From positions 576,001 to 640,000 of the forward strand of contig CM000207.1 of assembly GCA_000002445.1 (NCBI GenBank): 64,000 bases of DNA, given 5' to 3'. The position numbers and the translations under genes were made by a program. Source of the DNA: Trypanosoma brucei. Lineage: Eukaryota. Under the pieces are notes generated by a model, which saw only the letters and a list, made by a program, of their open reading frames with translations, had not been told where the DNA came from and searched no databases. Within the stretch, counting starts at the first letter, position 1, and each line of letters starts with the position of its first letter. Shown one piece after another: positions 13,801 through 59,866 of the stretch.

Positions 13801-14942
13801 TCATTCAGATACCTAGAATCTCCAGGTGGGCCCGCAACACTTTTTTCTGTTTCCACACTTCGATCCAGAGCATCAGAACAATCCTCCTGACCAACCCCTG
13901 GTCCCCGCATGCTTCCCTCAACGAAAAAAGGAGGAGTTTCCCTAGAAGTGGAGCCGTCACCAGTATCACACCTCCTCCCGTCAACGTATGATGGAATGAT
14001 GCCCTTATTACCTCCACTCACCGCGGAGTCCGAGGGAAGCATCACACGCTCGTCGGTGCGTGGAGCTTCCCCGTAGAAGAACGTTGGAGGAGATGGATTT
14101 ATTGTGCCCCCAAAACACTGTTGGTGGTGACTATTGTGGTGAAAATTGTGATAGACCTGGTGTGGTTGATGATAACGATGTTGCTGCTGCTGCTGGTGCT
14201 CTCTATAGCGGTTCTGCTCATCCATCTGCTGACGAATTTGGTGGTATATGTAGGCGTCATCGTTGGTGGAAGGACCAGTTGCTATGGCAGTTGGGGCTGA
14301 TCGTGACAGGTAGCCGTAATGACGCGGGGTTGATCGCCACTGGTGGTTGTGACCATTGCCACTTGTACCTAACATGGCCGGCGCCAAAAGCGGTGGAACC
14401 AACCCTCCACAACCTGGTGGGGGCATACCAACAAATGGAGGAACCTGATGGAACGGACCCACCCGCTGCTGAGAAGGATTTTGCACACAATTTTCCATTG
14501 ACATATCCACAAACGAAGTTGCATCTGGAAGGGGAAGCGGTTGTGGCGGCTGCGGCACCGGGCGCGGACCTTCCCCAAATTGACCCCACCGATGTACCTG
14601 CTGACCAGATACCATTGAGGACTCAGCGGACCCCGGCGATGCGGCAACGCACGGGGCCCTTTGAGCAATTTTCATTAGCCATGGGCGCTGCGATTGCGAT
14701 GGTTGTTTCTGTTGCGGTTGATGTTTCTGAAAACTTGGTATGGGACCGCCTATAAGTGCCGGGGGTCCACTACGACACGTTGGTGCCTCCACGAAGACTC
14801 TCGAACAGTCTCCATTTCCCGCTGATGCGTCCATAACACACTGAAGGCCGTCCGCGCTACTACTACTAAGCTGACTCTTCGATGAAACATCACATGATAA
14901 CGGGGCAGTTACACCCTTCTCCACGTAAGTGTAGTTTAGCAT
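10806..14942 (-). CDS. Large hypothetical protein (1378 aa) with Q/H-rich low-complexity tracts
   Basis: An uninterrupted 4.1 kb minus-strand ORF. It contains HQQQQHRYHQPHQVYHNFHHNSHHQQ and a long S/T/P/G-rich linker. The C-terminal portion (GVGWLTWGAAERPDQRSLVLEQVRDLAAQDPRYSVLL...YYAPRPPRHE) looks globular. I could not confidently assign a family (a regulatory or RNA-binding role is speculative). Confidence 0.65.
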   Translation of the reverse strand: MLNYTYVEKGVTAPLSCDVSSKSQLSSSSADGLQCVMDASAGNGDCSRVFVEAPTCRSGPPALIGGPIPSFQKHQPQQKQPSQSQRPWLMKIAQRAPCVAASPGSAESSMVSGQQVHRWGQFGEGPRPVPQPPQPLPLPDATSFVDMSMENCVQNPSQQRVGPFHQVPPFVGMPPPGCGGLVPPLLAPAMLGTSGNGHNHQWRSTPRHYGYLSRSAPTAIATGPSTNDDAYIYHQIRQQMDEQNRYREHQQQQQHRYHQPHQVYHNFHHNSHHQQCFGGTINPSPPTFFYGEAPRTDERVMLPSDSAVSGGNKGIIPSYVDGRRCDTGDGSTSRETPPFFVEGSMRGPGVGQEDCSDALDRSVETEKSVAGPPGDSRYLNERRNSHGKNSNDGSRENNRTFGGTKHCSLDEGGHRGLPLHPNDAGKRCNQNACQYKSDGLFPLGENGGQGESYASTKINTTEKTNKLPGKVDEQGAAGCEVTAGQKTSQTDQGKPKAREGNLCISCNQELKPPALTMLGDHGHDTEMLHNQRQPYGEPTNLFGHTPTGVSPTCGPPAAEALGTKHHQGCSHKSPTAHRASQWEPVPPKDLQHYRSNIAVGIAYQGGYSCTESCASGERSGPVLLAGGGGHETVRSVAGNYMWKSPTSQHRRQPLEGSPTQMSGLTCGDGGGRATAQTPSSASPWSHARAPGHARHLPLHPPMYEQHGALEDLFDEGGADIPFEPQVYGNIVSFVCAVSPILLATRLVESPTASPKSATPGNEERTPSRGGHPPTFVEPLIPLRCIWESLDMPFACAVRLAQPVPLTPMRFPQETVVYSPFLSGFRLRFLESSATYAELKAMQSRSGDDSCNAFQRRPASGRTSPTCVCTGESGQGDTDHEPPLACTYPAITKSATGKDCATPRGSVETASTVRDGSEEMDDSSGVGWLTWGAAERPDQRSLVLEQVRDLAAQDPRYSVLLTANVTELDYQSWIAVLWRPVFDQNHCAKHNCGSFIVYYAPRPPRHEIAPLSQSSSALECMNKSWMSPVFRADRAALRWDMWAPSRREVSVAEQTTAQTPKSASPGCTAPLSPALSPSVAAGGIAAGGSAVVSNFEKPVDLNGSSADAAAAREASITSGVAHETTHTSPSLSFVDSTTNTASLGSHCGPTLQSADQPFYARIPVVGIIPNRCRADVWFMPCFRDGVPDPGHRRDIGATGVPPCGYYCAPLFLLTAALQLMSWNAVEEYERQLAKKVALHGGGGGDSSGLGTEGSASASVNGGGPPSGNAVAAGVSSFRAAQDEKPSGVKLLIDAAKYYRQYRESAHTDAQAGTPTPKLNLSGQEAGEVNGRCRTISPSVASNISSTPFTEPGAVVGGLPDFYQWAQFDGPLLKFAERYV

Positions 14943-21430: not shown

Positions 21431-22105
21431 TTAAATAGCAACCATGATACCTCTTTCGTGACGCAGTAAAGCCAGCTTATCATCCAATATCTGAGCAAAT
21501 CCCAATAAAGAAGGCTTCACCCCTGCGATGCGGTGGACAGGAACCAACCCAAAGAAACAGTTGTCACGCAGCGCCCTTTCAGCGACACCAACCTGGAACT
21601 TTCTGCAGAAATATCGGTATTCCTTCTGTGTTCCAGCTTCGATTTTAATTACTTCCCTCCATACTTCGCCGTAATTAAACGCATCCGGTGGCATGTGTAA
21701 CGGAATTGACCTTAAAATATTATTTATTTCTCTCCTTCTTTTTTCCAAACCTTCAAGGCTGTCGCCCGATGGTGCAAGTGGATAGTTGAAATAGCGCCAA
21801 ACCAACAACGCGGTCCGTTCATGAGGGATGTGCGGAACGCCACCTTCTTCCGCGCCTGCGTTTTCATGCAACTGAGGGAATGGCACCTCCATAAGAGCTG
21901 CGTTGGGGCAGACTTTACGAAGCCACTCATTAACGTCAAAACGAGAGCCTTCCCTGTAGCAACACAAAACAGCGCCGCTTTCACCAACAAAGAGAAAAAT
22001 ACAACGCTTCCACCATAAAAGGCGATAAACAAATACAGTACAACGAACAACATCACAAGAAAACACGCAGAAAACCATGATAAAGCAAAAAACCAAATAC
22101 AACAA
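21431..22105 (-). CDS. Hypothetical protein; probable true start is an internal Met near 21892 (MEVPFPQLHE...)
   Basis: The ORF N-terminus (MLYLVFCFIMVFCVFSC...) is a translation of a pyrimidine-rich tract and is unlikely to be coding. The distal 150 aa (..RSIPLHMPPDAFNYGEVWREVIKIEAGTQKEYRYFCRKFQVGVAERALRDNCFFGLVPVHR..) looks protein-like. I recognise no family. Confidence 0.4.
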   Translation of the reverse strand: MLYLVFCFIMVFCVFSCDVVRCTVFVYRLLWWKRCIFLFVGESGAVLCCYREGSRFDVNEWLRKVCPNAALMEVPFPQLHENAGAEEGGVPHIPHERTALLVWRYFNYPLAPSGDSLEGLEKRRREINNILRSIPLHMPPDAFNYGEVWREVIKIEAGTQKEYRYFCRKFQVGVAERALRDNCFFGLVPVHRIAGVKPSLLGFAQILDDKLALLRHERGIMVAI

Positions 22106-23651
22106 TTTATATGTACAATTAAACTAAAATATTGTGCTTATAAGCAAAACGCCTACTACAATTGACGGAAAAAAAAAGAAAAAAACCATAACAAATATAT
22201 AAAACAATAGAACACACAATACATAAGTAATACGGCTCAACACCCCATTCACACTTCATATGGAGTTTATGAACACCACTAATGATATATTCATGACAGT
22301 TAATAGTTGGAAATAGAAAATGCAATGGCATATGACTTACACTCAGTGCATTGATAATTCCAATAACTCTACATTTCATACGGCACCTCATACCACTCCT
22401 TCAAATGAATACAAACATCTCCCATGTTCGGGTTAAAATGTAACGCAATACGCTAAGGGGGATTACCTTCATTTGTGAAACTAATAATATCATCACACCA
22501 TCATATTACTGAAATGAAACTATTTTTTTGTACAAAACATCCTCAACGACAAAACGAATTATATAGTGCAACACTATTGTTAGTCAGCACACACATACAC
22601 AACACACAAGTAACAACATAAATATATTCCTTCCTTTTGTCTAACACACTAATAAGAAGAAAAATATGAGAAATAGTGAATTTGACAAGAGAACATGTAT
22701 ATATACATTTATTTATTTATTTATTCATATACAGGTGATGAAGGGATTGACACAGTAACCCTCAGTATAATAACACAGCAACACGAAAGTAACATCGTAT
22801 CGCCATATTCCCTTACGATCAATATTAACAAAAACATATTATAAAACAAACACATGGAGGCCGTAACACCTGCCTGATTTATCCAAATACAACATATCAA
22901 CACATAATACGCTACGTCTGCACGATATATACATATACATATACTCGAACAAAGAAAAAATTGACACTTCACATAACTACTGATATGCGAATCATCACTT
23001 ACCGTCCGTACCATGTTACAGAAAAGAAAAAGGTTATTAATCAAAAAATAAAAAGAAAGGATATATAAAGTGATTACAAAGCTGACAATATAGAATATAT
23101 GCACAAGAAGGATCTACACACTTCACAATAATGCACAACATAAACACATACACAACGCATATAAGCATACAGCTAAGGGGGAAAAACATATAAGGATACA
23201 AACTCCATATAATTAGAGAAAGGTAGCAGAGAGAAAGCCTTAACACATAACTCAAGTATATTATATATGAAAGTTCAGCAGGTAAGTATTATTAATGAGA
23301 GAATAAGAAATGGAAGTGTATAGAGCAATACAAGGTAATATATATTCAAAATTAATGGAAATGAAACCAAATACTACTCATTAAGTGGTTCAACAATTTT
23401 CAAAATAAATAGTTGATTATTTCAAGAGAGTAACTGTAGTTGCTTCATGCAAACAGAAACATTTCACAAAGATTATAAAAACATTAAATACAAAAATATT
23501 ACGGTACAAAGGAAGGTACTTAAAGACATTGCGAAGAAATACAGTAGCAGAAAAAGACAATGTGACAATAGGGAAACATGACACACAACAGCACATCACT
23601 GCACACACCTCCATAAATTCTCATGCACATCATTAAACAAAAAGTATACAC

Positions 23652-24938
23652 TCACTCATCAGCTGCTGGAGTTTCCTGCTGATGGCTGGTAATGCTTAAA
23701 TGCTCCTCACCATTTGATGGTACCGCTGCCACTTCTGCTGCCTCCACATTAGATACGGGTGAGGTAACCTTTTCACGGAGAGACATTACAGTAATATACT
23801 TCTCATGACCTGCAAAACAGCAAAAGTATAAAAGAATAAGCAATACAGCAAGAAGAATAAATATTATAACAACAGCAGCACCGGCACCACCGCCACTTCC
23901 CTCACCATCGGAAGCTGTAGATGGCACAGTCTTATCTGATGCTTCATTACTTCCATTAGATATTTCATCAGCTATTGTATTTTCATCAGCTGTTGCATTT
24001 TCATCAGCTGTTGTATTTTCATCAGCTGTTGTATTTTCATCAGCTGTTGTATTTTCATCAGCTGTTGTATTTTCATCAACTGTTGTATTTTCATCAACTG
24101 TTGCATTTTCATCAACTGTTGTATTTTCATCAGCTGTTGTATTTTCATCAACTGTTGTATTTTCATCAACTGTTGTATTTTCATCAGCTGTTGTATTTTC
24201 GCTGTGAGGGGAAGCAGGTGGAAGCGGAGTTGGTACTGCAGAGGCTTCACAGAGAACCATGAAAAAGCGTGTACTTCTACCCCTAGTGTTCGTAAACATA
24301 GATATATTTCCAAAGTCGTCATCATCATCAAACCATGTGAAGCGACCAGAGGAATCCAGTTTAGCAATTACGTTTAATCTCCCGTACGCAGGATAATTTT
24401 CGAAAAAGGATGGGTAGTCATTCATACTACCAGCTCCTGTTACTTCATAGTAAGACCCACGCCAGAATGCAACACCATTATCGTCAGGAGTTGCCGGAGC
24501 AAACAATCCTGTGTTCCATCGATAGACACAATTTAATGATGAAGCGAGGTCACCTACTTTGCATCTGTCCTTTTCCTCATGTACTGAACTCGCACTGTAC
24601 TTGGCATCACCACCAAGGTAAGCATATAAATACCCCAATTCATTTTTCGGTTTTAATAGTTTATATATTAAACTGTTTGTGGCCTCAGAGTGGTCAGTAG
24701 CGAGGTTCATACCTTCAGCACGGCACACACGCTCAGAATTAACGTAATCCACATTATATACACCATTATTTTTAAACACTTCATGAGGATATATGGCGTA
24801 ACTCTTAGCTGCTGTAGTCACGGGACCCCCTCCAGAGCTGGCAGCCTGCAGTGGACGTAAAATACATTGCAATAACATCAGTATACCACACAGAGTTGTA
24901 ATCCGAGAGAAGTTTGATGGCACCATGCGGATTTCCAT
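23652..24938 (-). CDS. Type-I surface membrane glycoprotein with 13 tandem ENTT[A/V]D hexapeptide repeats
   Basis: N-terminal signal-like segment CGILMLLQCILRPLQAASS. A ~200 aa Cys-containing ectodomain (CRAEGMNLATDHSEATNSLIYKLL...WNTGLF...FWRGSYYE...FMVLCE) is weakly reminiscent of a C-type-lectin-like fold. Then come 13 repeats of ENTTAD/ENTTVD (each an N-x-T sequon), the TM helix AAVVIIFILLAVLLILLYFCCFAG and a ~60 aa cytoplasmic tail. Confidence 0.7.
   Translation of the reverse strand: MEIRMVPSNFSRITTLCGILMLLQCILRPLQAASSGGGPVTTAAKSYAIYPHEVFKNNGVYNVDYVNSERVCRAEGMNLATDHSEATNSLIYKLLKPKNELGYLYAYLGGDAKYSASSVHEEKDRCKVGDLASSLNCVYRWNTGLFAPATPDDNGVAFWRGSYYEVTGAGSMNDYPSFFENYPAYGRLNVIAKLDSSGRFTWFDDDDDFGNISMFTNTRGRSTRFFMVLCEASAVPTPLPPASPHSENTTADENTTVDENTTVDENTTADENTTVDENATVDENTTVDENTTADENTTADENTTADENTTADENATADENTIADEISNGSNEASDKTVPSTASDGEGSGGGAGAAVVIIFILLAVLLILLYFCCFAGHEKYITVMSLREKVTSPVSNVEAAEVAAVPSNGEEHLSITSHQQETPAADE
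23963..24200 (-). repeat. Coding 18-bp tandem repeat (~13 units, ttcatcagctgttgtatt on the plus strand) encoding the ENTT[A/V]D hexapeptides
   Basis: Direct inspection shows near-identical 18-mers with a/g and c/t variants at fixed positions. The repeat also generates the spurious antisense and alternate-frame ORFs 23972..24367(-) and 23975..24262(+). Confidence 0.9.
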
Positions 24939-26943
24939 GTTTACTGTTAAACTTGCTTGCTTATGAGTCTGTAGTTAATGTTGGGAAATCAAACAGATAT
25001 GAAAGGGTTAGTTAAAGGGGAAAGTCAAGGGACCGGGAAGTGAAGAAAGTAGTAATGGTTGTACAATCATAAAAGTGGTGCGCACACACATTGCGAAAAC
25101 TCAACATGAAAATAGTTCATCACTCATATTAGAAACTAGTAATTGGGAAGCAAATAACTGTCGTGGTGATAAATAAACTATCATTAAAAATACATGTTGC
25201 AGGTTGTGAGTAGTAAATTAAATAATGTGTGTTTGTGGGAATTGGCCTTCTTGCCAGGACGATAGAATACCACTCTTTCAGGCGAAGTTTGCAAGTACTG
25301 ACTGTGACGGTTGTCATTCTTTTATCCTATTTTTTTTCCTGCTGCAAATGTTGGTGTTTTTTTTTTCGCAGAGGGGGCATGATTGCTGGTAAATGGATCA
25401 AGTGGTGAGCGGGGCAACCTGTTTTAACGTTGCATTCTATGACATCTTGGTTGTAGTGCATTACTGTCTTTGTGTGTAGGCGTCCCTTGTCAATGTGTAA
25501 CCGAAAATAGTGTAATTTCATCGATATGGCACATGTAAGAAAGCGGTGTGTGCAAAACATCTGCGACGAAGATTCTGTACCAGTTCATTCCTCTGTTTTG
25601 TTTATATAGCGTCTTGTACGGCAGAGGTTAAAAGTGATACGGAGAGTCATGTACATGTGGCAGCATACGTACATTAGAGGCTATACTCCCGTCCTTTAGA
25701 ACCTTGCCAATAAGGTGCTCACTGCGCAAGTCGCTATACAACGGCTCATGATAATCGTGTCGCCGTGTTAAACCTTTCTGAGATTTACCGGCTTTTTATT
25801 TCTTAAGCCGCGAGCGGCTCCGTGTCAGTCCGCCTCTATCCAACATGTATACAAATACATGAATGAAAGATCGACCCCCCTTCCAATACCGCGCCGCCCC
25901 ACAACCTTTGGTGGAAGGAAGCGGGAAAGAAACGATTGGAATGTGTGGCGCTAAACGCACTAAAGACACCCGGGAAGGAACTTACCCTGCACTCCCCCTC
26001 ATTTACACCATGCGAAAGGGGGATAAAAAAGGACTGAGTAGTTTCTCGGGCAGCCAACAGTGTTGGAAAATTTATGAACACCAGCAGTCACTTATGGCGA
26101 GCCGCTGCTGCCGCCACAACTTCCACGGTGCAGAAGTTGCATTATTCGTATTCATCTGTCCTTAACAAAACATACTTCACTTCCACTTCCTTTCATCAAA
26201 AAAATGACAATGACAGAAAGGAAGGAAAGAAATGGCTACCGCTGCCTTTGCGGGATAGAGAGACGTTCGAAGCGCTGCACAGAGAGCACCTCTGAACCTT
26301 ATCACGAGGGTACAAAAAATGGATATTATTCATGCATCAAAGAGGGGCTCCTCACCAACACTCCCGGTCCTGATGGTTTATTTTTCAACTTAGAACTTAA
26401 ACGCTTAACGAGAACCTTAAAATTAAAAAATTTAAAAACTGTAGAGAAAAATAAAGAAGGGATACCAAGACCAAAACCTTTGTCCCTCACCCATGCGTCA
26501 CTCCCGCAGGTAAACAACGCAAAGTTTGAGCAGGCCTCACTCTGAAATGCCACCAACACCACATCTGTCAAGAGGGGGAAAAGGTAGCAGTAGAAGTAAA
26601 AAAGTGGGACCATCTAAAGGAATGGAAAAAAACAACTACATTAATGCCCCCGTTCACCCATTTGGGCCCAGTACACCTGTTATCTCCCATTGTATCCTTC
26701 CGCTGCAAATGTTTCCACGTCCAACTGCCACCGCGACGCACGCCCAATTTCGCGATGTGCGTGCGCTCCCCCACTTATCCACAAGCGAGACGCTCGCCGT
26801 CATTTCCCCAACTGATCTGTAATACCATTTAAAAAAAATTGGAAATGAAAGATAGTAACCAGCTCTTGACTTAGAGAGCTACCTCACCGAGATGTCATCA
26901 TGTACATGTACTCCAAGGCACACCCTTCCCATTGCAGCGGGTA

Positions 26944-29900
26944 TCAGGAACCCATCGCATACAGGACATCTTGGCCCGTAATGGATGAAAGATGTCCACA
27001 CAACCTCCGCGCCTGCTCCACAACGACGTCGTCGCGGTCCTCTGTAAGCTCCGCAACGGAAGGAAGCATTTCAGCCATGAGCCGCGCAGCCAATTCACCT
27101 CCACCGTCCTCGTAAATGCGATCAAGACACAACAGCGCCACACGCCGTACATGACGACTCGGGTGACGAAGCGAACGCAGCACTTCACGCTGAGTGTCGC
27201 TCTGCTGCTTGGAAGATGTCAATGAGAGGAACAGCGCACGGACAGCAGGGATGACACATTGCTCCGCGCGAAAGGCGTAGTCATGTGTGCTGTCGGCAAG
27301 GTACACGAGATTTGTGAGTTGCCGAACGACTGCAGGCATTACGGCGCTGAACACCTCGTGTGTTGCAAGGTAATTGTCCACCGGAATGCTATGATCATGG
27401 TGCGGTGGTGCTGTTTGGGCGGAAGCTATGATCCTGATGCTGTTGAGCGCACCTTCAAGCGTACGCGCTATGAGATCTGCCGCATGGCGCGCAGCATGTG
27501 TTGTAGATGAGCAGTAGCTCGCAAGGGTACCGACGATGTACGGCAGAAGAACAGGAAACGCAAAATCCATGATGGATCCCAACCTCTCCAGCAAATGGTT
27601 GCACAATGCATAGAAGAGAAGCCAACGATGCACAATCACACGGGGAACGGACGCTACGTCGTCCCTCTCCCGCACGTCCTCAGATTCTTTGCCTGCCGAC
27701 TCCTTTGCCTGCTGTTTCTCAGTCGATTTGACGAAGCCCTCCGCAGCTCCACCAAAGGCCCACTCAGCCATTGTGGATATGAAAGATGTACAGTGTTTGG
27801 CCTTAAACTTTAAAAAGAACATCGTGTATGCCTCGAGAACTGGCTGAACGGCATCTGGTGATGGAAGCGTCGGTGCACTGGCTAGCGTCTGCATCGATGA
27901 GAGCCAAAAGTTGTCACGAGCTGTGGTTCCTCCCACGAAGAGACTCAAATGTTTTAACTCCTCGCGGCCAAGGCTCGTCACCCGCCGTTGTATACTGGAG
28001 TAAAGCAGTGCTAGAGAGTGGGTGTCAACCCGCACGCGCAGAACCCTTTTTGATCGCTTCCCCGATTCATCTGCGGCCACCTCCTGTTCGACAATCCCCC
28101 GCACGCACTCGGCGGATGCCTCAATAAACAACTGCGGCTCAAGGGCAACCTCCAACATAGACATCACCTCCACACTAAGATAGTTAGTCTCCGTGTCATC
28201 GACGTTTTGCAAGTGTGTCGCGACGTAAATGATGCGGGAAAGGTATGGCTGACACATGAGCCAGGACGACGGAAAGGTACGAAGTAAGCAATTGAGAGAT
28301 GACTGACGAAGCACGGACCCCACTTCACCCCGTGAAACGGTAGGTGGGACACCCGCTGCTGCAAAAACGGCAGCATCCACTACGACTTGCAGTGTGACGT
28401 TACTATGCGGCACGGTGAAAGCAGTACCCATCACCTGGCTCACTGTGCCGAGCGCCGTCAAAAGAGCAGCTGCGGCAAACAGACAATCCTCCTTGGAGCC
28501 GTGCGTATGCTCTTCATCCTGATTACGACACGACCGAATAACACGGGGTAGTACAGAAACCATGCTGTCCACCCAACGATGAACTTCCTCCACGCGGGAA
28601 TGGTTGCCAAACAGTTTGTTAAGTCTGTCTTCCGTTACCCGAGCAGTACGGTTTACGTTTAGTAGAGCCGCCTCTGCGTGTTGACTACCACCACTAGCTA
28701 TAATACGAACAAGTTCCTCCATACATGCAACGCTGAGTGTCAGTAACCTCAAATTGTCTACCCTCTCGGCTTTTCCAACCTGCACCCCCGCCGCCGACAT
28801 CATCAACGCGAAAATATGAGAGAAGAGGGTGAAGGACCGCTTCGTCGCAAATGGTCTTGCCTTAAGGCGAACAACGTCTGTAAGGGTTAATCTGCTCTTG
28901 GGATCGCGTAGCTTCTGGCGCCCCCGTTCCACCTCCTCCTTCGTGAGGATCTGCTCAACAGTTGGCAAAGCGTTGTGCAAGCGGTCCAGCAGCATTTCCA
29001 GTCCCTTCAACTGCACCGCCGCACGGTGGTCTGTAAGAAGGTTCTTCATGCACAAAACAAATGTAGGTTCATTAATACCGGCAAGTACACAAGCCAGCGT
29101 GTTGCCAGCGAGGAGTTCCAACAGCATCACAAACGCCTTTTTTTCCCCGTACGCCGGGGCGCCCACAAACCCACCATCGGAATGTTGACTGGCAGCAGCG
29201 GTGCCGGCATCGTTTTCTGTGGCTGTGTTGAGCTCCGTGTAGTATGCAAACAGTTTGAGAGAGGCAACAAGGAGTGCCATGCACTCGTTGCTTTTGTCGA
29301 TTCCCTCAAACAAGGAGCTCTCCCCATATTTGGTCCCACTGGTATCGTCCCTTTGTACACCACCATCAGCATGTGCTGTGTCCAAACAAAGCACCGCGGT
29401 GCTGTGCTGGAGCGCCACAAACCCGGCGAGGAACTCCTCTGATTTAATCGTGTCGTTGATGAGGTACATAATCTCCTCCTGTCGATTTACCACTTGATTG
29501 GGTTTCAATAGCTTCCGAAACAGCCGCTTCATAGTGTAATCATCATCATTTTCAGAACACCCGACGTCACCTGTGTCCATACCTTCGACCTTTCCTCTCC
29601 GATTACCACCAACCTTTGGCGACGATAGGGAAAGTTGTTTGTGCGGATCAACAAGCAGCTCCATCATACCCGTGAGACAAAGCAGCTGTGTTTGCACATC
29701 AAAACTAACTAAGAGATGGCGGCATACCTCCATGGCACTGGTGTAGTTGTGTTTTCCAGACTCGAAGTTTACCGACTCCAGACGGATGAGAAGGGCGACG
29801 ACCGGTATATGCAGCGCAACCCTTCCACCAACAGAAAAATCATTGGAATGCATTGGTGTAACAGCGGGGGTAAAAAGCGGCGAAACGATCCTTAGCAACT

Positions 29901-32900
29901 CTGTGACGGTACCGATGGTGCGGCCAGAAAAAACGGAATTGGGGCGTGCAGCTTCAGATGCCGAAGCCGGCTTCTGTGCTCCGCTTGACGACGGTAAATC
30001 CGGAGTAAATAAGCCAGCCATGAGGATTACACTCTGCCTCACAACTTCTTGGCGTATAACCGCTGCGCCATCTGGCTGACCATCGTTTAATGCCCCTGGT
30101 GACGAAAGACACAGATTCACAAGGCAACGAATAAATGACAAAGCAAGGCGATACAACGAGTTCCCAGAGGCACCAACATCAGCACTATCGTTGTCTTCGA
30201 GAAGTGGAAGCAGGGATGCCAGCGGGAACGAATTCAGAACCTCTCTAACCAAATTAAATAATGATGAATCCCCCAAGTCCTCTCCTCCTTCCCCCTCTCT
30301 TTTGCCCACATCGTCCCCATCGAACCTGATCAAGTGCGATGATTCAAAAATAGCACACAGAATGCGCAGTGCTGGTAAGGTGTTGCCTTCTCGTCTCCAC
30401 ACAATTTCTTCCCCGCCATCGGCCCGACTCAACGACTTCGCACAAAGCTGAAGAATAGACTCAACATCTGTGGACTTCAGCGGGTCATAAAGAGTACACC
30501 ACGATGGTGGCTCCCATGCGTCCACCGTATCCCCTCCCTCTCCTTCCGACCCCGGTAATGGCGAGGAAGGTGACGCAGCTGCAACTGCCTCGAGCGCATC
30601 CGCAATAATTGACAAGTCCGGACTCCGCTGTTTCAGTTTCTGTGACACAAGTGGTAAAAATAGGCGTTGGTAGCCGCCAACAGTACCGACCAACAGTGAA
30701 AGTGCATCAGCACCCATCCGACTTAGGCAAACAGCGTCGTCCAGTACCACCTCCGAAACCACACTAGCCACCCTTTTGGCGTAATCCTCGTCGTCGCTTT
30801 TTTCCAATAAATTATTCGTGCCCTGTGAAGTATTTCGCGTTGGCTTTGGTACAAAGACAAGTGGGTTTGCAGAAGATACATCACACCCCCGACTCAACAC
30901 CGAAGCAAAGGTACTGAGGGCGTGGCGATACACTAAGCGGGTACGGCGACCACTGACTCGAAGAAACGGGTGGCGAACAAGGGCAAGGTTCAGCTGCAGT
31001 AAGGCATTCTTTTCTTCGTTGCTGATGGTTGCCATTTCTGCGCAAATCTGTGCGCGATTGCAGATGGCTTGCACAAAGTTTGCTGCTTCTGGGCTCACCG
31101 TCCCCTCTCCACCGTCGCCGCCCGCTTCTAGAAGTGATATTAAAAGCGGCAGGAGAGCGTTAACCACGATGCCACTTTTCCGGGCGCGCAGTGGATAGAA
31201 GTGCTCCACCACAAGGTTCAGAAAGGAAAAGGGCGCTGTTGTTTCTTCATTTCCACCGTTTCCAACTCCGTCAACTATCATGCGGCACAGAAGCTCGGAG
31301 GCGGTGTGCGTCAGGTGTGCGTGAGAATCCTCCAGAGCTATTGCCTCAACGAGGGCATTCAGTGTTGTGATGGAAATGGATCCCTGACGCAACGCAGCCT
31401 CCAAAAATAGCTGTGCGCTGCTCATGTTAGTTATCGTTAGTCTCTTCTTTGCGTCTCTGGTACTCCTCTTAACATCGTCCGCAGCAGAAAGTATGAGCCC
31501 CTGCAACGTTGTCAATACATCCTCCCGGCGACCAGCCGGCGCGGCTAGGGGTGAGGTCACAGCCACAAATAACCCTGACAGAGAGAAGTAACTTCCACAG
31601 TTCGATTTCAGAGTGACAGGGGACTCGAACACGGAGCGGTAGACGAGACGGAACCAGTCCACGGGTAGCTGTACATTCCAGTCATCGCCCGCAACGTCGC
31701 TAGCGGTGTTACACAACTCCAGCATATGCAGGTAAGCGGGTGGAAGCCACATGGGACTGACTGCCGCAGCCGGGAGGGGGGCATCCAAATAACCCAGCAA
31801 ACGCCCCATGTACGCCAGCGTATTGGTTGAATTGAACGCCATCTTCTCGCCCTCAACGCAACTACCGACCTCAGAGTTTCTAGCCAAACGCGTTTCCATG
31901 CTGATGCGAATAGTGGCACCCATTATCCTGGTAAACAGATTTTTCGGCAAAAATGGCGACGACCCGTCGTTTGCAGCTCCTCGTCCAACACGTCCTCTCA
32001 TCCCGCCCGCTGCCGCTCTTTGTGATCCCTGTAAATTCATCAAGTAGCCGCCTCTCATCCCAATAGAATACTTACTGGTACGGACGCCGCCGTTCCTACC
32101 ACTCACAAAGAACTGGAACAGCATGTGTGTGACGTCGGCCAGCTCAGAATCATAAGCTGTTGATAATAGCGCCGCGCAGCCCACGCAACACTCGAGCATA
32201 ATTGCCCTCGCGGAAGGACGGTCATCTTCGTTAGCCTCACGCAGACACAGCAGCCGCTCGAGGGTCGGACGAACCTGCACAGAAGCCTCATGGTAGAGCG
32301 CCAACAGTAATGGGGTGCATTCAAACACAGAAAGGCAGAACCCCTCCTCCCCTTGTTCATCGTCTAAGAGACTGGTCACACCACCCATGAAGGCCGCGGC
32401 GCTCTTTCCGCCTTCAGTGCTGGCATCACAATCGGCAAATTCATACAGTGGATCACATCCCGGGTACAACGCAGGGGTAAAGAGAGTTGCCGTCCGACCA
32501 ATGCCCGGAACGGTTTCCACCAAATGCTTCTCTAATTTCATCACCAACTTAGTCAACTCGGCATCTGTACTTTCCCCGGCACACAAACGCTCCTTGGCGG
32601 ACCCTCCATTGACACTCCTTTCCCGCACAAGCAGATCAATAGCATGTACGTACAACAATGTCGCATAGTAAAGCAGCAGACCCCATCCGATACGACAGGC
32701 ATCTCCCATCTCGGGAACTTTCAGCTTCTTCTTCGACCCACCCAGAAATACCCCCCGTTGCTCATCAACCTGTTGCATGAGTGGAAGGAGGATCAACTGG
32801 TAGAACCTCTCCTGTATCGCAACACAGCCTTGAGTGACAGTCATCGTCCAGAAGCAACGAAACAACCTCCGCAAAATGCCGATCGCGTCGTCCACAGGGT

Positions 32901-34839
32901 TGCCGGAACCCTGTGTTTCATCTGAAAAAGACCTTGAAGGCGTTTCCCCGGCCCCCGCTCCACTTGACAGGATCACGCGTATAAGTTTGTTGGACGCAGC
33001 ACCGGCGACTTCCAGAAACATCATGGCAACTTCTGGTGACTGCTCGTACTGCGCTACGTGGCCAAGAAGGTCCAGAAGAGTGTTTCCCCTTTCATTACCT
33101 CGGCTACCGTCCAGTGTCGATAAGGATGACGTGGTTAACTGTCCGATAGACATCTCCCTCATGCGCTCCGCCGCAAATCGTCGCACCTCTGCAACCGGAT
33201 GCAGTAGACAAGCGAACAACGGCAGTTGTTCCGTTGACCCAGACGATCCACGGACTTCCAGCAGTTCGTACCGCGCACCACTGAGGTGCCGCGCAAGAAA
33301 CCTTGCGGCAGCATTCTGGGTAGTGACATCATTGAGCAACTGCGACAGCGTAGTATCAAAAACGTGGCAGAAGCGCCTCTCGAGAGCTTGTATCCACATG
33401 GTCACACACTTCCTCCCGGTCGAACTCTGCCCATGTTTACTACCCCCTCGGCCGCTTTGTAACTGCTTCACGCCCAAGTGGACCTCCTCTTCGTTCTCTC
33501 CGTTTTGGTGGTTCGCCATTGTCGCCGTCTCCTCAACGTTGCACGACACTAACGTCGCTATCGTCTCTGCCACAAGTGCATCGTTGAGAGGTAAAAACTC
33601 CACAGCACACTGCACAAACACCAGGACGTCAGACGAAACTGACTGCAGTGAATGGGTCGATTTAAGCCGGTAGAGACAGTCACGCAACAGCACGGAAACA
33701 AGGGTGTCGCATATCCGCGCCTCAGAAGAGTCGATAAACCGGACCCAATGTCCCCACGGAAACGAGAGCATGAACTTAAGTTGGGGCGAAAACGTGACGT
33801 CCAACACAGCCTCGCGCTGAGTATGGAAGAGTACATCAAGAACCGCTAACAGATCAACCACTGAAACGGTGAAAGAGGCGGAACCATCCACACCTGTAGT
33901 CAACAGATGGTAAATTGGTTTCACAACGGCTCTCAGGGTTGCGGATGACAACTTCACCTCATTACTCCACGCCACCAGCGCCACGAGCGCGCTGCACGCA
34001 GCCTCCCGACTGGGTGAAAATCTCGACACCCCGCTGCCATCTAAGTCCTCACCAATCCATGGACTCTCGTCACCTTCATTTACCTCCTGCAACTCAGAAT
34101 TAGACAGTTTCTCTGTTGATCTCCCAACGGTTATGAATTCCACAACAAATGGTAAAAGTACGCGCCATGTTGCCTCGGCGTTGGGGTAGGAAGCCAACTG
34201 AACCGCCACACCGGCGAAAAGCGCGTGTGCAGCGCTGTTGTGAACGCGCATTCGCACCGATATCGCAACGGTAAGACACACGAGTTGCAATACTTTTCTA
34301 CTCACAGCGCACGCCTGCACCAAGTGTTCCCGAAGCAGTGGGGATCCGGTCTCCTGATTTGCTGCAAGGAACTCAAGACCAGTATCTCGCAAATCCAGCA
34401 GCAGCAGCACACGAGAAAACAAACTGTGATCATGGTATGGCAAGAAGGCACGTAGCACCGCTGAAACGTTGTAAACGTGCACCTCATGCACACGTACGAG
34501 ATATTCGAAAACTTGATGCGCTGCAGTAAGAAAAATGTGGGGACTAAGCAGCGTAAGGAACTGTTCCACCGCCTCGTTCAGTTCCTGGTTGGCGTCCCTT
34601 CTAAGTTGCTTCCGCTCTGCACGAGTACCATGTGGGTCAAAGAGTCGGTTAACAAAGAAGTGGAAGCGATTGTCAACCGCAATCAGTGTTTGAAGACCGT
34701 GGACAGCAAGCTGATGTATCTGTTCACGCGAAAAGTTACGTGAATCACCATCGCTGAATAAGAACGACCCGGATAGACGTTTGTCGTCCACTGGTCGATG
34801 CTGCAACTTCTGTAGCTGCGAAGCGAGTTGAGACGACAT
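26944..34839 (-). CDS. UTP10: UTP10/HEATR1-like giant HEAT-repeat protein (U3 snoRNP / SSU processome component), 2631 aa
   Basis: The N-terminus MSSQLASQLQKL...SFLFSDGDSRNF...QLAVHGLQTLIAVDNRFHFF...QELNEAVEQFLTLLSPHIFLTAAHQVFEYLVRVHEVHVYNVSAVLRAFLPYHDHSLFSRVLLLL parallels the HEATR1/U3snoRNP10 N-terminal domain (...FLIHLSPYFLLKPAQKCLEWLIHRFHIHLYNQDSLIACVLPYHETRIFVRVIQLL). The protein is helical-repeat throughout, and the C-terminus (RHVRRVALLCLDRIYEDGG...) resembles the terminal BP28CT/HEAT unit. Confidence 0.8.
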   Translation of the reverse strand: MSSQLASQLQKLQHRPVDDKRLSGSFLFSDGDSRNFSREQIHQLAVHGLQTLIAVDNRFHFFVNRLFDPHGTRAERKQLRRDANQELNEAVEQFLTLLSPHIFLTAAHQVFEYLVRVHEVHVYNVSAVLRAFLPYHDHSLFSRVLLLLDLRDTGLEFLAANQETGSPLLREHLVQACAVSRKVLQLVCLTVAISVRMRVHNSAAHALFAGVAVQLASYPNAEATWRVLLPFVVEFITVGRSTEKLSNSELQEVNEGDESPWIGEDLDGSGVSRFSPSREAACSALVALVAWSNEVKLSSATLRAVVKPIYHLLTTGVDGSASFTVSVVDLLAVLDVLFHTQREAVLDVTFSPQLKFMLSFPWGHWVRFIDSSEARICDTLVSVLLRDCLYRLKSTHSLQSVSSDVLVFVQCAVEFLPLNDALVAETIATLVSCNVEETATMANHQNGENEEEVHLGVKQLQSGRGGSKHGQSSTGRKCVTMWIQALERRFCHVFDTTLSQLLNDVTTQNAAARFLARHLSGARYELLEVRGSSGSTEQLPLFACLLHPVAEVRRFAAERMREMSIGQLTTSSLSTLDGSRGNERGNTLLDLLGHVAQYEQSPEVAMMFLEVAGAASNKLIRVILSSGAGAGETPSRSFSDETQGSGNPVDDAIGILRRLFRCFWTMTVTQGCVAIQERFYQLILLPLMQQVDEQRGVFLGGSKKKLKVPEMGDACRIGWGLLLYYATLLYVHAIDLLVRERSVNGGSAKERLCAGESTDAELTKLVMKLEKHLVETVPGIGRTATLFTPALYPGCDPLYEFADCDASTEGGKSAAAFMGGVTSLLDDEQGEEGFCLSVFECTPLLLALYHEASVQVRPTLERLLCLREANEDDRPSARAIMLECCVGCAALLSTAYDSELADVTHMLFQFFVSGRNGGVRTSKYSIGMRGGYLMNLQGSQRAAAGGMRGRVGRGAANDGSSPFLPKNLFTRIMGATIRISMETRLARNSEVGSCVEGEKMAFNSTNTLAYMGRLLGYLDAPLPAAAVSPMWLPPAYLHMLELCNTASDVAGDDWNVQLPVDWFRLVYRSVFESPVTLKSNCGSYFSLSGLFVAVTSPLAAPAGRREDVLTTLQGLILSAADDVKRSTRDAKKRLTITNMSSAQLFLEAALRQGSISITTLNALVEAIALEDSHAHLTHTASELLCRMIVDGVGNGGNEETTAPFSFLNLVVEHFYPLRARKSGIVVNALLPLLISLLEAGGDGGEGTVSPEAANFVQAICNRAQICAEMATISNEEKNALLQLNLALVRHPFLRVSGRRTRLVYRHALSTFASVLSRGCDVSSANPLVFVPKPTRNTSQGTNNLLEKSDDEDYAKRVASVVSEVVLDDAVCLSRMGADALSLLVGTVGGYQRLFLPLVSQKLKQRSPDLSIIADALEAVAAASPSSPLPGSEGEGGDTVDAWEPPSWCTLYDPLKSTDVESILQLCAKSLSRADGGEEIVWRREGNTLPALRILCAIFESSHLIRFDGDDVGKREGEGGEDLGDSSLFNLVREVLNSFPLASLLPLLEDNDSADVGASGNSLYRLALSFIRCLVNLCLSSPGALNDGQPDGAAVIRQEVVRQSVILMAGLFTPDLPSSSGAQKPASASEAARPNSVFSGRTIGTVTELLRIVSPLFTPAVTPMHSNDFSVGGRVALHIPVVALLIRLESVNFESGKHNYTSAMEVCRHLLVSFDVQTQLLCLTGMMELLVDPHKQLSLSSPKVGGNRRGKVEGMDTGDVGCSENDDDYTMKRLFRKLLKPNQVVNRQEEIMYLINDTIKSEEFLAGFVALQHSTAVLCLDTAHADGGVQRDDTSGTKYGESSLFEGIDKSNECMALLVASLKLFAYYTELNTATENDAGTAAASQHSDGGFVGAPAYGEKKAFVMLLELLAGNTLACVLAGINEPTFVLCMKNLLTDHRAAVQLKGLEMLLDRLHNALPTVEQILTKEEVERGRQKLRDPKSRLTLTDVVRLKARPFATKRSFTLFSHIFALMMSAAGVQVGKAERVDNLRLLTLSVACMEELVRIIASGGSQHAEAALLNVNRTARVTEDRLNKLFGNHSRVEEVHRWVDSMVSVLPRVIRSCRNQDEEHTHGSKEDCLFAAAALLTALGTVSQVMGTAFTVPHSNVTLQVVVDAAVFAAAGVPPTVSRGEVGSVLRQSSLNCLLRTFPSSWLMCQPYLSRIIYVATHLQNVDDTETNYLSVEVMSMLEVALEPQLFIEASAECVRGIVEQEVAADESGKRSKRVLRVRVDTHSLALLYSSIQRRVTSLGREELKHLSLFVGGTTARDNFWLSSMQTLASAPTLPSPDAVQPVLEAYTMFFLKFKAKHCTSFISTMAEWAFGGAAEGFVKSTEKQQAKESAGKESEDVRERDDVASVPRVIVHRWLLFYALCNHLLERLGSIMDFAFPVLLPYIVGTLASYCSSTTHAARHAADLIARTLEGALNSIRIIASAQTAPPHHDHSIPVDNYLATHEVFSAVMPAVVRQLTNLVYLADSTHDYAFRAEQCVIPAVRALFLSLTSSKQQSDTQREVLRSLRHPSRHVRRVALLCLDRIYEDGGGELAARLMAEMLPSVAELTEDRDDVVVEQARRLCGHLSSITGQDVLYAMGS

Positions 34840-37921: not shown

Positions 37922-39538
37922 TCAACGATGTTGGGGAATGAGGTCATAAAGCTGCATTAAGTTGGGGAAGCCATGTTCCCAGAGGGCAGACTGAAACTGG
38001 CGGCTCGTGCGTGTATCGTAGCTGAGCCTTGTTATGATTACCAATAACGAATTGGGGGCACTAAACGACGTCGTGATAGCCTCACGCGGTATGCCCAAAG
38101 AAGAACAGAGGTCTAGCACAACGGCACCCGTCAATCTGCCAAAGTCTTTCTGAATCAAATCACTCCATTCCTCATCAGGGGAAGTCAGACGCAGTCGTGT
38201 GACCCGGGGAACGCACTTGTCCGGCTCAACCTTCATCGGACTGTCAACATGAAGAGAAAACAAATTCATACGTTCTATAAGAGACAGCTGAACCGATGAC
38301 GAAGGCTCATCCGAACAATTTCCGTTATTCTGCGCCGGCTCCACACGTTCGGAGGACATTTGTAATGAAGCCTGATCAGTCGATTGCGGTAATTCTTCCA
38401 CTTGGGTTTGCTTGCAGTTAGACAGTGAATACCTTGACATTCTGTACATCGCCGTGCTCTCAGTTGCACGCAGGATGAGTCGTGTAGTAGCCTCATCGGA
38501 ACTTATCTTCCCGCGGCTTATCTCCTCCTCTACGCTAAGATCACGGCAAACGGCCTCATCAAGTCTCAGCTCCTCTTCAGGTGCTGGTACGTGGCCCTTA
38601 ACCTGTGGAGCCCTGAACAACAGCGAAGCCAATGCGTTTGGAGAACTCAACACAGTCCCGTAACCGCCAGTTCGCTTTACAACACCATCCACCTTCAAGA
38701 GGGTCTTAGTCCCCTCCACTGCAAGTGCTTCCGATGGTGCCGCAAGCTCTAACGGCACATCTGCCATCTGGCCCGTCTCATCTTTTTTCACTTCAACAAT
38801 TACATGAAAGCAGTCGGCGTGGAATTGCACCGTCTGTGGCGTCAGCAACGCAAAAGAATCAAAATCCTTATCCAAGTATGTAACGTACAGCACCTGAAAC
38901 TTAAGAAGTGCAGCCTTATCATGAATTATACCCATGACGTCGTCAAAATTCGCTCCCTCCTCTTCACATGGTGCTGGTACTTTCAACTCGCCCAGTTTGG
39001 CACCGGACTCCGTTGCAAAGCACAAGGTCCAATAGCCGGAGTCGTTGATGCAACAATCAGCCAAACAACGATCGTCTGAGGCTGCCACCGGCTGGCGGAA
39101 TCCGTACTCGACAGCCACTTCGCTGAGTTGTATATTTGGAAGTGCCGACGATGCCTTGCAACCCTTCACTTCAAACGGCATAAGACTCTCAATTGACCTT
39201 GCCGTGTCCATTAGCCCTGGGTTTGGTATGTGTTCCTGATGTGCTCTTAAGCAAACACCATCCGGATATGGCGAGAGCGTCTCCGCAGTTGGTAAAAAAC
39301 GGCCGGGCGTCGTCCCGCTGCGAACCGTCAAGTGGGATCCCGATTCCTTCGGGGGAAGGGTATCCACATAGCGCTCAAAGAAGCCACCACGGGGCGATTT
39401 GTCGATCATAGGAAGGCTTTCAACAAAATTTTCTAAATAACGGTACAAAAAGACGGCCGCACCCAACCGCAAATACACAAAGATGTGTGTAGCTCTATGG
39501 ATGGGTGGGTCCCCGTCAAAAATAAGATATATGAGCAA
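37922..39538 (-). CDS. Hypothetical protein, 538 aa
   Basis: Long minus-strand ORF with balanced, protein-like composition. I recognise no family. Confidence 0.5.
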   Translation of the reverse strand: MLIYLIFDGDPPIHRATHIFVYLRLGAAVFLYRYLENFVESLPMIDKSPRGGFFERYVDTLPPKESGSHLTVRSGTTPGRFLPTAETLSPYPDGVCLRAHQEHIPNPGLMDTARSIESLMPFEVKGCKASSALPNIQLSEVAVEYGFRQPVAASDDRCLADCCINDSGYWTLCFATESGAKLGELKVPAPCEEEGANFDDVMGIIHDKAALLKFQVLYVTYLDKDFDSFALLTPQTVQFHADCFHVIVEVKKDETGQMADVPLELAAPSEALAVEGTKTLLKVDGVVKRTGGYGTVLSSPNALASLLFRAPQVKGHVPAPEEELRLDEAVCRDLSVEEEISRGKISSDEATTRLILRATESTAMYRMSRYSLSNCKQTQVEELPQSTDQASLQMSSERVEPAQNNGNCSDEPSSSVQLSLIERMNLFSLHVDSPMKVEPDKCVPRVTRLRLTSPDEEWSDLIQKDFGRLTGAVVLDLCSSLGIPREAITTSFSAPNSLLVIITRLSYDTRTSRQFQSALWEHGFPNLMQLYDLIPQHR

Positions 39539-57250: not shown

Positions 57251-57253
<3 letters not shown>

Positions 57254-57282
<29 letters not shown>
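57254..57282. repeat. (TA)n microsatellite
   Basis: Direct inspection. Confidence 0.95.
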
Positions 57283-57286
<4 letters not shown>

Positions 57287-59830: not shown

Positions 59831-59866
59831 ATGTATATATATACATATATATACATATATACATGT
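59831..59866. repeat. Imperfect (TA/TG/CA)n microsatellite
   Basis: atgtatatatatacatatatatacatatatacatg. Confidence 0.85.

What the first reader, a model, noticed from the sequence alone, without database searches (positions are those of the whole stretch)
23652..24938. Surface glycoprotein with 13 hexapeptide ENTT[A/V]D repeats (one N-glycosylation sequon per repeat) and a possible C-type-lectin-like ectodomain
The protein has a signal peptide, a Cys-containing ~200 aa ectodomain, a perfectly periodic acidic repeat in which every unit carries N-T-T, and a single TM followed by a cytoplasmic tail. This is the architecture of an invariant or stage-regulated kinetoplastid surface protein with a heavily glycosylated stalk. 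The 18-bp DNA repeat is likely copy-number polymorphic between strains and is a source of assembly collapse. The ectodomain pattern (C...W.G...W..G...C-E) loosely resembles a CTLD, which would be unusual in trypanosomatids.
Basis: partly seen in the sequence, partly recalled or inferred. Interest (0 to 1): 0.6.

Follow-up and report, generated by a model that had tools for sequence, protein, structure and literature searches.

The report
Known trypanosome ER lectin-like glycoprotein IGP48

Summary
A 428-aa ORF on the minus strand (23652-24938) encodes a signal peptide, a ~200-aa domain with four cysteines, 13 in-phase 18-bp/hexapeptide units, one TM helix and a 51-aa tail.

None of this is new. 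This is the IGP48 subfamily of the invariant glycoprotein family (Fam77), described in 2014 with the same repeats.

"Surface protein" is the weak part. Tagged T. brucei IGP48 is mainly in the ER, held there by its lumenal domain, which also mediates homo-oligomerisation. Only the T. congolense relatives (TcoClecs) are reported as surface-exposed.

The polymorphism and assembly predictions are borne out. Four T. b. gambiense tandem copies carry 7, 11, 12 and 15 units, against one 13-unit copy here. A draft-assembly contig also ends about 30 bp from the array-unit boundary.

Low interest; already known.

The parts
23652..24938 (-). Complete IGP48 coding sequence (428 aa plus stop; predicted core 46.2 kDa, pI 4.3)
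   Evidence: ORF list; translation and properties; PF16825 hit; 86% identity over 100% of the query to T. b. gambiense DAL972 protein P0001
24840..24938 (-). Signal peptide region (about aa 1-33; hydrophobic core TTLCGILMLLQCIL; likely cleavage around LQAAS/S)
   Evidence: 11-residue hydropathy peak of 2.47 at residues 13-27. The cleavage site is inferred from the -3/-1 rule; no predictor was run
24246..24758 (-). IGP-family C-type-lectin-like domain (aa 61-231; Cys72, Cys126, Cys137, Cys230)
24201..24245 (-). Pro-rich linker (aa 232-246, ASAVPTPLPPASPHS)
   Evidence: Translation; lower confidence in the model's last two 10-residue blocks, pLDDT 79 and 78
23967..24200 (-). 13 in-phase 18-bp units encoding ENTT(A/V)D; 12 N-glycosylation sequons; 26 D/E and no K/R in 78 aa
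   Evidence: TRF; per-unit listing; charge count
23880..23966 (-). Degenerate 14th unit (EISNGS, with an NGS sequon) and Ser/Gly-rich juxtamembrane segment (aa 325-353)
   Evidence: Translation and sequon scan
23808..23879 (-). Transmembrane helix (aa 354-377, AAVVIIFILLAVLLILLYFCCFAG)
   Evidence: 19-residue Kyte-Doolittle maximum of 3.39
23655..23807 (-). Cytoplasmic tail (aa 378-428, 51 aa, ends ...TPAADE; no KKxx or KDEL-type end)
   Evidence: Sequence. The published work found no potent sorting signal in the TM and tail
22228..25162 (-). One ~2.9-kb array unit (5' flank, CDS and AT-rich 3' region) that is tandemly repeated in T. b. gambiense but present once in this window
   Evidence: blastn of L001 against the window: four full or partial units all map to 25162..22228; no second copy in the window; GC 0.334 for 22001-24000

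Best explanation
The ORF is a member of the IGP48 subfamily of the trypanosomatid 'invariant glycoprotein' family (IGP, also Fam77 or TbClec, Pfam PF16825). It lies at the conserved locus syntenic with a T. b. gambiense DAL972 record that I take to be chromosome 9, in a Trypanosoma brucei-group genome. It is a type I membrane protein. A signal peptide directs the N-terminal part into the ER lumen. A divergent C-type-lectin-like domain follows; two disulfides are inferred (Cys72-Cys230 in the canonical alpha1-beta5 position, and Cys126-Cys137 family-specific). Next comes an extremely acidic array of 13 (A/V)DENTT hexapeptides that is N-glycosylated at up to 12 sites, then a TM helix and a 51-aa tail without a recognisable sorting motif. 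By homology with the experimentally studied paralogue Tb09.v4.0147, the protein should sit mostly in the ER with a minor Golgi presence. There it forms homo-oligomers through its lumenal part, and that part (not the tail) retains it. It is up-regulated in stumpy forms and is needed for normal proliferation and ER morphology. An ERGIC-53-like role as a cargo or glycoprotein-handling factor has been proposed, but the ligand is unknown. Inferred here: the canonical Ca2+/sugar site is not conserved (Y-P-A in the place of E-P-N, W-F-D in the place of W-N-D), so any glycan binding would be non-canonical. Also inferred: because the sequons lie in a strongly acidic context, they should be preferred substrates of the oligosaccharyltransferase TbSTT3A. 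[quoted passage not shown] At DNA level, the 18-bp array and the ~3-kb gene array both expand and contract by slippage or unequal recombination, giving different repeat numbers in every copy examined.
For: Identity: PF16825 at E = 7.7e-76, full-length profile match. All 38 aligned relatives hit PF16825. The ectodomain is 93% identical to the T. b. gambiense protein. Synteny with the MGMT-like, C2H2 zinc-finger and EB1 genes. The repeat starts at residue 247, exactly as published for IGP48 ('Residues 247-336... multiple DENTTV repeats').

Function, from the literature on the paralogue: ER co-localisation with BiP. Tunicamycin and PNGase F each shift the protein by ~15 kDa, and Endo H by ~10 kDa. 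Tomato-lectin binding is lost when the repeat domain is deleted. Homo-oligomers were seen by native PAGE and co-immunoprecipitation. [quoted passage not shown] Protein level is ~4-fold higher in stumpy forms.

Glycosylation inference: 26 acidic and 0 basic residues in the 78-aa repeat; TbSTT3A preference for acidic sequons.

Repeat dynamics: 7, 11, 12 and 15 units in four gambiense copies against 13 here, with different unit variants (GNTNAD units in gambiense only).
Against: No localisation, glycosylation or binding data exist for this particular copy. The published localisation used C-terminally HA-tagged, ectopically expressed protein. Family members in T. congolense are reported to be surface-exposed. 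IGP48 knock-down produced no detectable change in global N-glycans, so a lectin function is unproven. The Ca2+-site mapping rests on motif spacing and predicted secondary structure, not on a structural superposition. The profile alignment to rat MBP-A was unreliable (probability 9%).
Confidence: 0.88

Rival explanations
1. One reading: a plasma-membrane (surface or flagellar-pocket) invariant glycoprotein whose lectin domain is held out on a glycosylated stalk and contacts host or vector ligands.
For: The type I architecture resembles ISGs. The homologous TcoClecs of T. congolense are detected on the surface of bloodstream forms and removed by trypsin. IGP48 is recognised by sera of T. b. rhodesiense patients. 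It carries Endo H-resistant glycans and binds tomato lectin. Window-versus-gambiense amino-acid differences are about 5 times denser than in neighbouring genes: pN 0.025-0.029 against 0.005. They cluster in the loops that form the ligand face of CTLDs: 10 of 14 fall in residues 161-225 (Fisher p = 0.0012, region chosen after looking).
Against: In T. brucei, tagged IGP48 co-localises with BiP and shows no lysosomal presence. [quoted passage not shown] The location is unchanged in stumpy cells. Antibody recognition was explained by release from dying stumpy cells. Endo H resistance can arise from TbSTT3A-type glycans. pN/pS is about 0.5, not above 1.
Confidence: 0.1
2. The hexapeptide array folds as a left-handed beta-helix (LpxA-like) trimerisation domain, as proposed in the 2014 paper, rather than as an extended, mucin-like glycosylated spacer.
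For: VDENTT fits the generic hexapeptide-repeat pattern [LIV]-[GAED]-x2-[STAV]-x (pattern from my own knowledge). The only PDB sequence hits of the repeat are three left-handed beta-helix proteins: LpxD, a gamma-carbonic-anhydrase-like subunit and eIF2B-epsilon. Pfam LbH_EIF2B gives a weak hit. The repeat domain alone suffices for ER retention, and IGP48 homo-oligomerises.
Against: None of the hits is significant: E = 0.07-0.5, and 14.4 bits against a cutoff of 54. Pfam Hexapep PF00132 is not hit even at E <= 10. Only 5 of 13 units have Val at the core position; the others have Ala. One third of the residues are acidic with no counter-charge. Up to 12 N-glycans on a 78-residue segment would crowd a compact helix. 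Unit numbers of 7, 11, 12, 13 and 15 show no preference for whole turns of three units.
Confidence: 0.15
3. The single 13-unit copy is partly an assembly product: a multi-copy tandem IGP48 array collapsed into one unit, so the exact repeat number and sequence may be a consensus rather than a real allele.
For: T. b. gambiense has at least four complete copies plus a partial one at the same position. The studied T. brucei 927 IGP48 has an unplaced-contig style identifier, Tb09.v4.0147. A 7.2-kb draft contig, 99.5% identical to the window, ends at window ~22259, about 30 bp from the array-unit boundary at 22228. This exact protein is not on record in the large protein collection.
Against: The ORF is intact and in frame, and the repeat has no indels. 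Both flanks are unique and colinear with the last gambiense unit. Array size is known to differ between lineages, so a genuine single copy is possible.
Confidence: 0.3

Closest known systems
T. brucei IGP48 (e.g. Tb09.v4.0147; Allison et al. 2014, PMC4497807)
   Same: Same subfamily. It has a signal peptide, a PF16825 lectin-like domain, (V/A)DENTT repeats beginning at residue 247, a TM helix and a short tail. It lies in a housekeeping polycistronic locus, in tandem arrays in the relative examined.
   Different: [quoted passage not shown] The predicted core is 46.2 kDa rather than 48 kDa. There is a single copy in this window.
T. b. gambiense DAL972 IGP48 array (FN554972.1; P0001 and three neighbouring copies)
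   Same: Positional orthologues with ~93% ectodomain identity, near-identical TM and tail, and the same flanking genes.
   Different: 7, 11, 12 and 15 units, including GNTNAD and GNTTAD variants and a terminal ENTNTD unit that are absent here. Only 4-10 repeat sequons per copy, against 12 here.
T. congolense TcoClecs (Thonnus et al. 2017, PMC5349194)
   Same: Same family (Fam77/PF16825): CTLD, tandem amino-acid repeat, TM; 36-42% ectodomain identity to the T. congolense proteins P0005, P0007 and P0009.
   Different: A different repeat motif, and reported surface exposure in bloodstream forms rather than ER residence.
Animal C-type lectin CRDs (tetranectin, collectin-11, SP-A/SP-D, CD23, codakine)
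   Different: 11-21% identity. No Pfam Lectin_C hit for this protein. No EPN/QPD or WND motif. The canonical beta3-loop disulfide is replaced by a family-specific Cys126-Cys137 pair (inferred).
ERGIC-53/LMAN1 cargo receptor
   Same: Works-like analogy proposed by Allison et al.: a type I lectin plus stalk, oligomeric, ER-Golgi distribution, and no bulk secretion defect on depletion.
   Different: No sequence relationship. ERGIC-53 has an L-type (legume-like) lectin domain and a C-terminal KKFF signal (my knowledge). The IGP48 tail ends ...TPAADE with no di-lysine motif, and retention maps to the lumenal domain.

Membership tests
IGP / Fam77 family (Pfam PF16825) | PF16825 (DUF5075, IGP family C-type lectin domain) above the gathering score | tested here: met
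   254 bits against a cutoff of 22.6, E = 7.7e-76, profile positions 1-173 of 173
IGP / Fam77 family (Pfam PF16825) | Type I topology: N-terminal signal peptide, one TM helix, short cytoplasmic tail | tested here: met
   Hydropathy only: N-terminal core at 13-27, TM at 354-377, 51-aa tail. No SignalP or TMHMM was available. The topology of the paralogue was confirmed experimentally by glycosidase sensitivity
IGP / Fam77 family (Pfam PF16825) | Four conserved ectodomain cysteines | tested here: met
   C72, C126, C137 and C230. C72, C126 and C137 are invariant in the 7-sequence alignment. C126 and C137 are conserved at 90% or more across 38 sequences. Four conserved Cys are noted in PMC5349194
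IGP / Fam77 family (Pfam PF16825) | Kinetoplastid-restricted; housekeeping (non-telomeric) locus; tandem arrays | tested here: met
   Every named significant homologue is from a Trypanosoma species. Only 45 representatives at E <= 1e-3 among 1.84 billion proteins (that library carries no names). The gene is embedded in a same-strand run of conserved genes. It is tandemly arrayed in T. b. gambiense, but present as a single copy in this window
IGP48 subfamily | Array of (V/A)DENTT hexapeptides carrying N-glycosylation sequons between the lectin domain and the TM | tested here: met
   13 units at residues 247-324, 12 with sequons. The published description gives residues 247-336
IGP48 subfamily | 85-100% identity within the subfamily | tested here: met
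   93% ectodomain identity to P0001. 86% over the full length; the shortfall is largely the repeat-length difference
IGP48 subfamily | ER localisation, lumenal-domain-dependent retention, homo-oligomerisation | not testable with these tools
   Known only from experiments on Tb09.v4.0147
C-type lectin-like domain superfamily | CTLD fold (double loop; alpha1, alpha2, beta1-beta5) | tested here: met
C-type lectin-like domain superfamily | Sequence-level match to Pfam Lectin_C (PF00059) | tested here: not met
   No PF00059 hit for this protein at E <= 10. Only 2 of 38 family members reach E ~0.1. The family profile hits PDB CTLDs only at E ~1e-3, over the first ~55 residues
Ca2+-dependent carbohydrate-binding C-type lectins (true CRDs) | EPN or QPD motif plus WND motif forming Ca2+ site 2 | tested here: not met
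   None of EPN, QPD, EPD, QPN, EPS or WND occurs. By spacing, the Y-P at residues 182-183 (invariant in the 7-sequence alignment) and W-F-D at 202-204 occupy the expected positions: 19 residues from P to W, against 18 in MBP-A. This is inference, not a superposition
Ca2+-dependent carbohydrate-binding C-type lectins (true CRDs) | Demonstrated glycan binding | not testable with these tools
   No ligand is known. Knock-down did not change global lectin-blot patterns
Left-handed beta-helix hexapeptide-repeat (LpxA-like) domains | Significant match to Hexapep or LbH profiles or structures | tested here: not met
   PF00132 not hit; PF25084 at 14.4 bits against a cutoff of 54; PDB hits at E = 0.07-0.5 only
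Left-handed beta-helix hexapeptide-repeat (LpxA-like) domains | Aliphatic core residue in every hexapeptide; compact trimeric prism | tested here: inconclusive
   Val in 5 of 13 units and Ala in 8 of 13.

The most novel reading that the evidence does not exclude
IGP48 may not be purely an ER resident in T. brucei-group parasites. Like its T. congolense relatives, a fraction could reach the surface or flagellar pocket at some stage, for example stumpy forms. The elevated, loop-focused amino-acid divergence of the lectin face and the strain-specific repeat and sequon numbers would then reflect host- or vector-driven diversification of a non-canonical (Ca2+-site-less) lectin.
Probability: 0.1. 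Interest if true: 0.5.

Novelty: already known. Interest (0 to 1): 0.15.

Why it matters
Little is new. The gene family, the subfamily, its lectin-like domain, its hexapeptide repeat, its glycosylation and its localisation were all published in 2013-2017, and the family has its own Pfam entry.

The useful outcomes here are corrective and confirmatory:
- The protein should be annotated as IGP48 (ER-resident by homology), not as a surface protein.
- The lectin-like fold, previously supported only by a weak sequence match (1.24e-4), now has strong structural-prediction support.
- The canonical Ca2+/sugar site appears to be missing, which bears on the unresolved question of what IGPs bind.
- Repeat number and sequon content differ in every copy examined, and the locus is a documented assembly break-point. 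Copy number and repeat length in any assembly should therefore be treated with caution.

Tried and rejected
1. The full-length protein search was swamped by the low-complexity repeat. It returned only one true relative plus three unrelated hits: P0002 matches through its own DENxxA-type acidic repeats, and P0003 and P0004 cover only 19-29% of the query. These are not homologues. Searching the ectodomain alone found the family.

2. The first AlphaFold run, with 7 sequences, gave pLDDT 46.5 and was discarded. A 38-sequence alignment gave pLDDT 87.

It could not be used to map the Ca2+ site, so motif spacing and predicted secondary structure were used instead.

4. The exact-sequence look-up of the 428-aa product found nothing on record, so the source strain could not be identified. 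A neighbour's exact protein is found only in GCA_001457755.2, which I recall as T. equiperdum OVI. That contig is 99.5%, not 100%, identical to the window.

5. The afdb50 fold library was unavailable.

6. ORFs in the other frames and on the other strand across the repeat (23972..24367 -, 23975..24262 +) were rejected as by-products of a stop-free periodic sequence.

7. Positive selection was rejected as a claim: pN/pS is about 0.44-0.57, elevated relative to neighbours but below 1.

Full report
**Observation**

The window carries a 428-aa ORF on the minus strand at 23652..24938 with an ATG start. Tandem Repeats Finder reports one array inside it, at 23963-24200: period 18, 13.2 copies, 95% matches, no indels, score 420.

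Translated in frame, this gives 13 hexapeptides at residues 247-324: ENTTAD x6, ENTTVD x4, ENATVD, ENATAD and ENTIAD. A degenerate 14th unit, EISNGS, follows. The 13 DNA units differ at only three nucleotide positions, and all three differences are non-synonymous. That pattern points to recent expansion or homogenisation.

Ten units have NTT, two have NAT (still sequons) and one has NTI (no sequon). The repeat therefore holds 12 sequons. Further sequons are NGS at 328 and NIS at 211 in the lectin domain.

The other features also hold:
- The N-terminus has a hydrophobic core at about residues 13-27, preceded by Arg4 and Arg12.
- There is a single strongly hydrophobic segment at 354-377.
- The tail is 51 residues.
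- The ectodomain has four cysteines: 72, 126, 137 and 230.

**Identity**

Pfam gives one strong hit: PF16825 (DUF5075, "IGP family C-type lectin domain"). It scores E = 7.7e-76 and 254 bits against a cutoff of 22.6, covers residues 61-231 and matches the full length of the profile.

The closest protein on record is a "hypothetical protein, conserved" of T. brucei gambiense DAL972. It is 86% identical over the full length, with the shortfall largely due to repeat number. The ectodomain alone is 93% identical. More distant relatives (36-42%) are from T. congolense, T. b. brucei TREU927 and T. b. equiperdum, and all carry PF16825.

An exhaustive profile search of 1.84 billion representative proteins found only 45 relatives at E <= 1e-3. 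All 38 that I aligned hit PF16825.

The family has been described three times:
- as the invariant glycoproteins IGP34, IGP40 and IGP48, with 20 genes in T. brucei 927 (PMC4497807);
- as TcoClecs in T. congolense (PMC5349194).

[quoted passage not shown] This is the same repeat, in a shifted frame, starting at the same residue as here. The ORF is therefore an IGP48 gene.

**Fold**

The 2014 paper rested the lectin assignment on a weak match to PF00059 (1.24e-4). I tested it independently.
- At sequence level this protein does not hit Pfam Lectin_C at all. The family profile reaches solved CTLDs (DEC-205, SP-A, tetranectin, a TSG-6 Link module) only at E ~1e-3, and only over the first ~55 residues.
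- An AlphaFold model from 7 sequences was unusable (pLDDT 46.5). A 38-sequence alignment gave pLDDT 87 and pTM 0.82.
- The top 50 Foldseek hits are likewise all C-type lectin CRDs.

The canonical carbohydrate site appears to be absent. No EPN, QPD or WND tripeptide occurs. By spacing and predicted strands, Y-P (residues 182-183, invariant in the 7-sequence alignment) and W-F-D (202-204) occupy the positions of E-P-N and W-N-D. The distance from P to W is 19 residues, against 18 in MBP-A. This mapping is inference. A profile alignment to MBP-A was unreliable, and I had no access to the model coordinates.

**How it most likely works**

Shown experimentally for the paralogue Tb09.v4.0147:
- It co-localises with the ER marker BiP, with a minor Golgi presence.
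- Tunicamycin and PNGase F each increase its mobility by ~15 kDa, and Endo H by ~10 kDa.
- Tomato-lectin binding depends on the repeat domain.
- It forms homo-oligomers, shown by native PAGE and co-immunoprecipitation.
- The protein is ~4-fold up-regulated in stumpy forms.
- Knock-down impairs proliferation and ER morphology without a global glycan change.

The authors propose an ERGIC-53-like role, but the ligand is unknown.

Two points are inferred here. First, the 78-residue repeat has 26 acidic and no basic residues. [quoted passage not shown] The repeat should therefore be a dense TbSTT3A substrate, which fits the Endo H-resistant, tomato-lectin-binding fraction. Second, the paper's suggestion that the repeat is an LpxA-like left-handed beta-helix is not supported at significance. 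Pfam Hexapep is not hit, and LbH_EIF2B scores 14.4 bits against a cutoff of 54. The only PDB hits are three LbH proteins at E = 0.07-0.5. I rate that idea at 0.15.

**Surface or not**

T. congolense relatives are reported as surface-exposed, and patient sera recognise IGP48, so a minor surface reading cannot be excluded.

Compared with four gambiense copies, non-synonymous divergence of the lectin region is about 5 times that of two neighbouring genes: pN 0.025-0.029 against 0.005. However, pN/pS is only 0.44-0.57. Ten of the 14 variable ectodomain positions fall in residues 161-225, the loops that make the ligand face in CTLDs (Fisher p = 0.0012; the region was chosen post hoc). This is a hint, not evidence of selection.

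**Locus, polymorphism and assembly**

All large ORFs in the window lie on the minus strand, as expected of a trypanosomatid polycistronic unit. The genes downstream of IGP48 (in the direction of transcription) are an MGMT-like protein, a C2H2 zinc-finger protein and an EB1 homologue. Upstream is a 2631-aa protein with a weak HEAT-repeat hit.

The same downstream genes follow the gambiense gene on FN554972.1. There, a ~3.1-kb unit corresponding to window 25162..22228 is tandemly repeated. It gives four complete copies of 440, 422, 392 and 416 aa, with 15, 12, 7 and 11 repeat units, plus a partial copy. The unit variants GNTNAD, GNTTAD and ENTNTD are absent from the window. The window has one copy only.

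A 7.2-kb draft contig (GCA_001457755.2), 99.5% identical to the window, ends at window ~22259. That is about 30 bp from the array-unit boundary at 22228. Whether the window's single copy is genuine or collapsed cannot be decided without reads; I give collapse 0.3.

**Verdict**

The feature is real and the lectin inference correct, but it is an already described gene (IGP48, Fam77, PF16825). The localisation claim is probably wrong for T. brucei. Novelty: already known. Interest: 0.15.

Noticed in passing
window 22721-23104 (-); L001 1528-1818, 2677-2967, 5802-6092, 14833-15123: A 96-aa ORF (MIRTVSDDSYIISYVKCQFF...) is called as a gene downstream of IGP48 units in the T. b. gambiense record. 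Its counterpart in the window is the 127-aa GTG ORF. It lies in the AT-rich 3' part of the array unit, is Cys/Ile/Leu-rich and has no Pfam hit on record. It is most likely a spurious call within the 3' UTR that is conserved only because the whole unit is duplicated.
   Followed up: partly
window 22001-24000: GC drops to 0.334, against ~0.47-0.54 elsewhere. The region coincides with the IGP48 3' flank and intergenic part of the array unit. A second low-GC stretch (0.41-0.43) lies at 56001-60000.
   Followed up: no
L002 1-237 vs window 22057-22295: The first 237 bases of the draft contig CZPT02000688.1 match the same window segment as the following bases, but at only 88% identity. This suggests a diverged duplicate of the array-boundary sequence at the contig end.
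   Followed up: no
window 23972-24367 (-) and 23975-24262 (+): The 18-bp repeat is stop-free in other frames and on the opposite strand. It creates artefactual ORFs of 131 and 95 aa (MKIQQL... and FHQLLY... repeats) that a gene caller could mis-annotate.
   Followed up: yes
window 26944-34839 (-): A very large ORF (2631 aa) lies immediately upstream of IGP48. Its only Pfam hit is a sub-threshold HEAT repeat near the C-terminus (20.1 bits against a cutoff of 23.5). It was not characterised.
   Followed up: no
window 37922-39538 (-) and 10806-14942 (-): A 538-aa ORF gives a weak hit to the FAZ1 conserved domain (22.7 bits against a cutoff of 27.5). A 1378-aa ORF hits DUF789. Both are ordinary conserved trypanosomatid genes by appearance.
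   Followed up: no
whole window: All 17 non-overlapped ORFs of 200 aa or more are on the minus strand, and GC skew is negative throughout (cumulative -2.75). This is consistent with a single polycistronic transcription unit with no strand switch in 64 kb.
   Followed up: no
protein P0002 (metagenomic, 594 aa, PF00448): An unrelated PF00448 (SRP54-type GTPase domain) protein from a metagenome carries a long DENISADENLPPI-type acidic repeat that mimics the IGP48 repeat (E = 7e-14). This is a convergent low-complexity match, not homology.
   Followed up: partly
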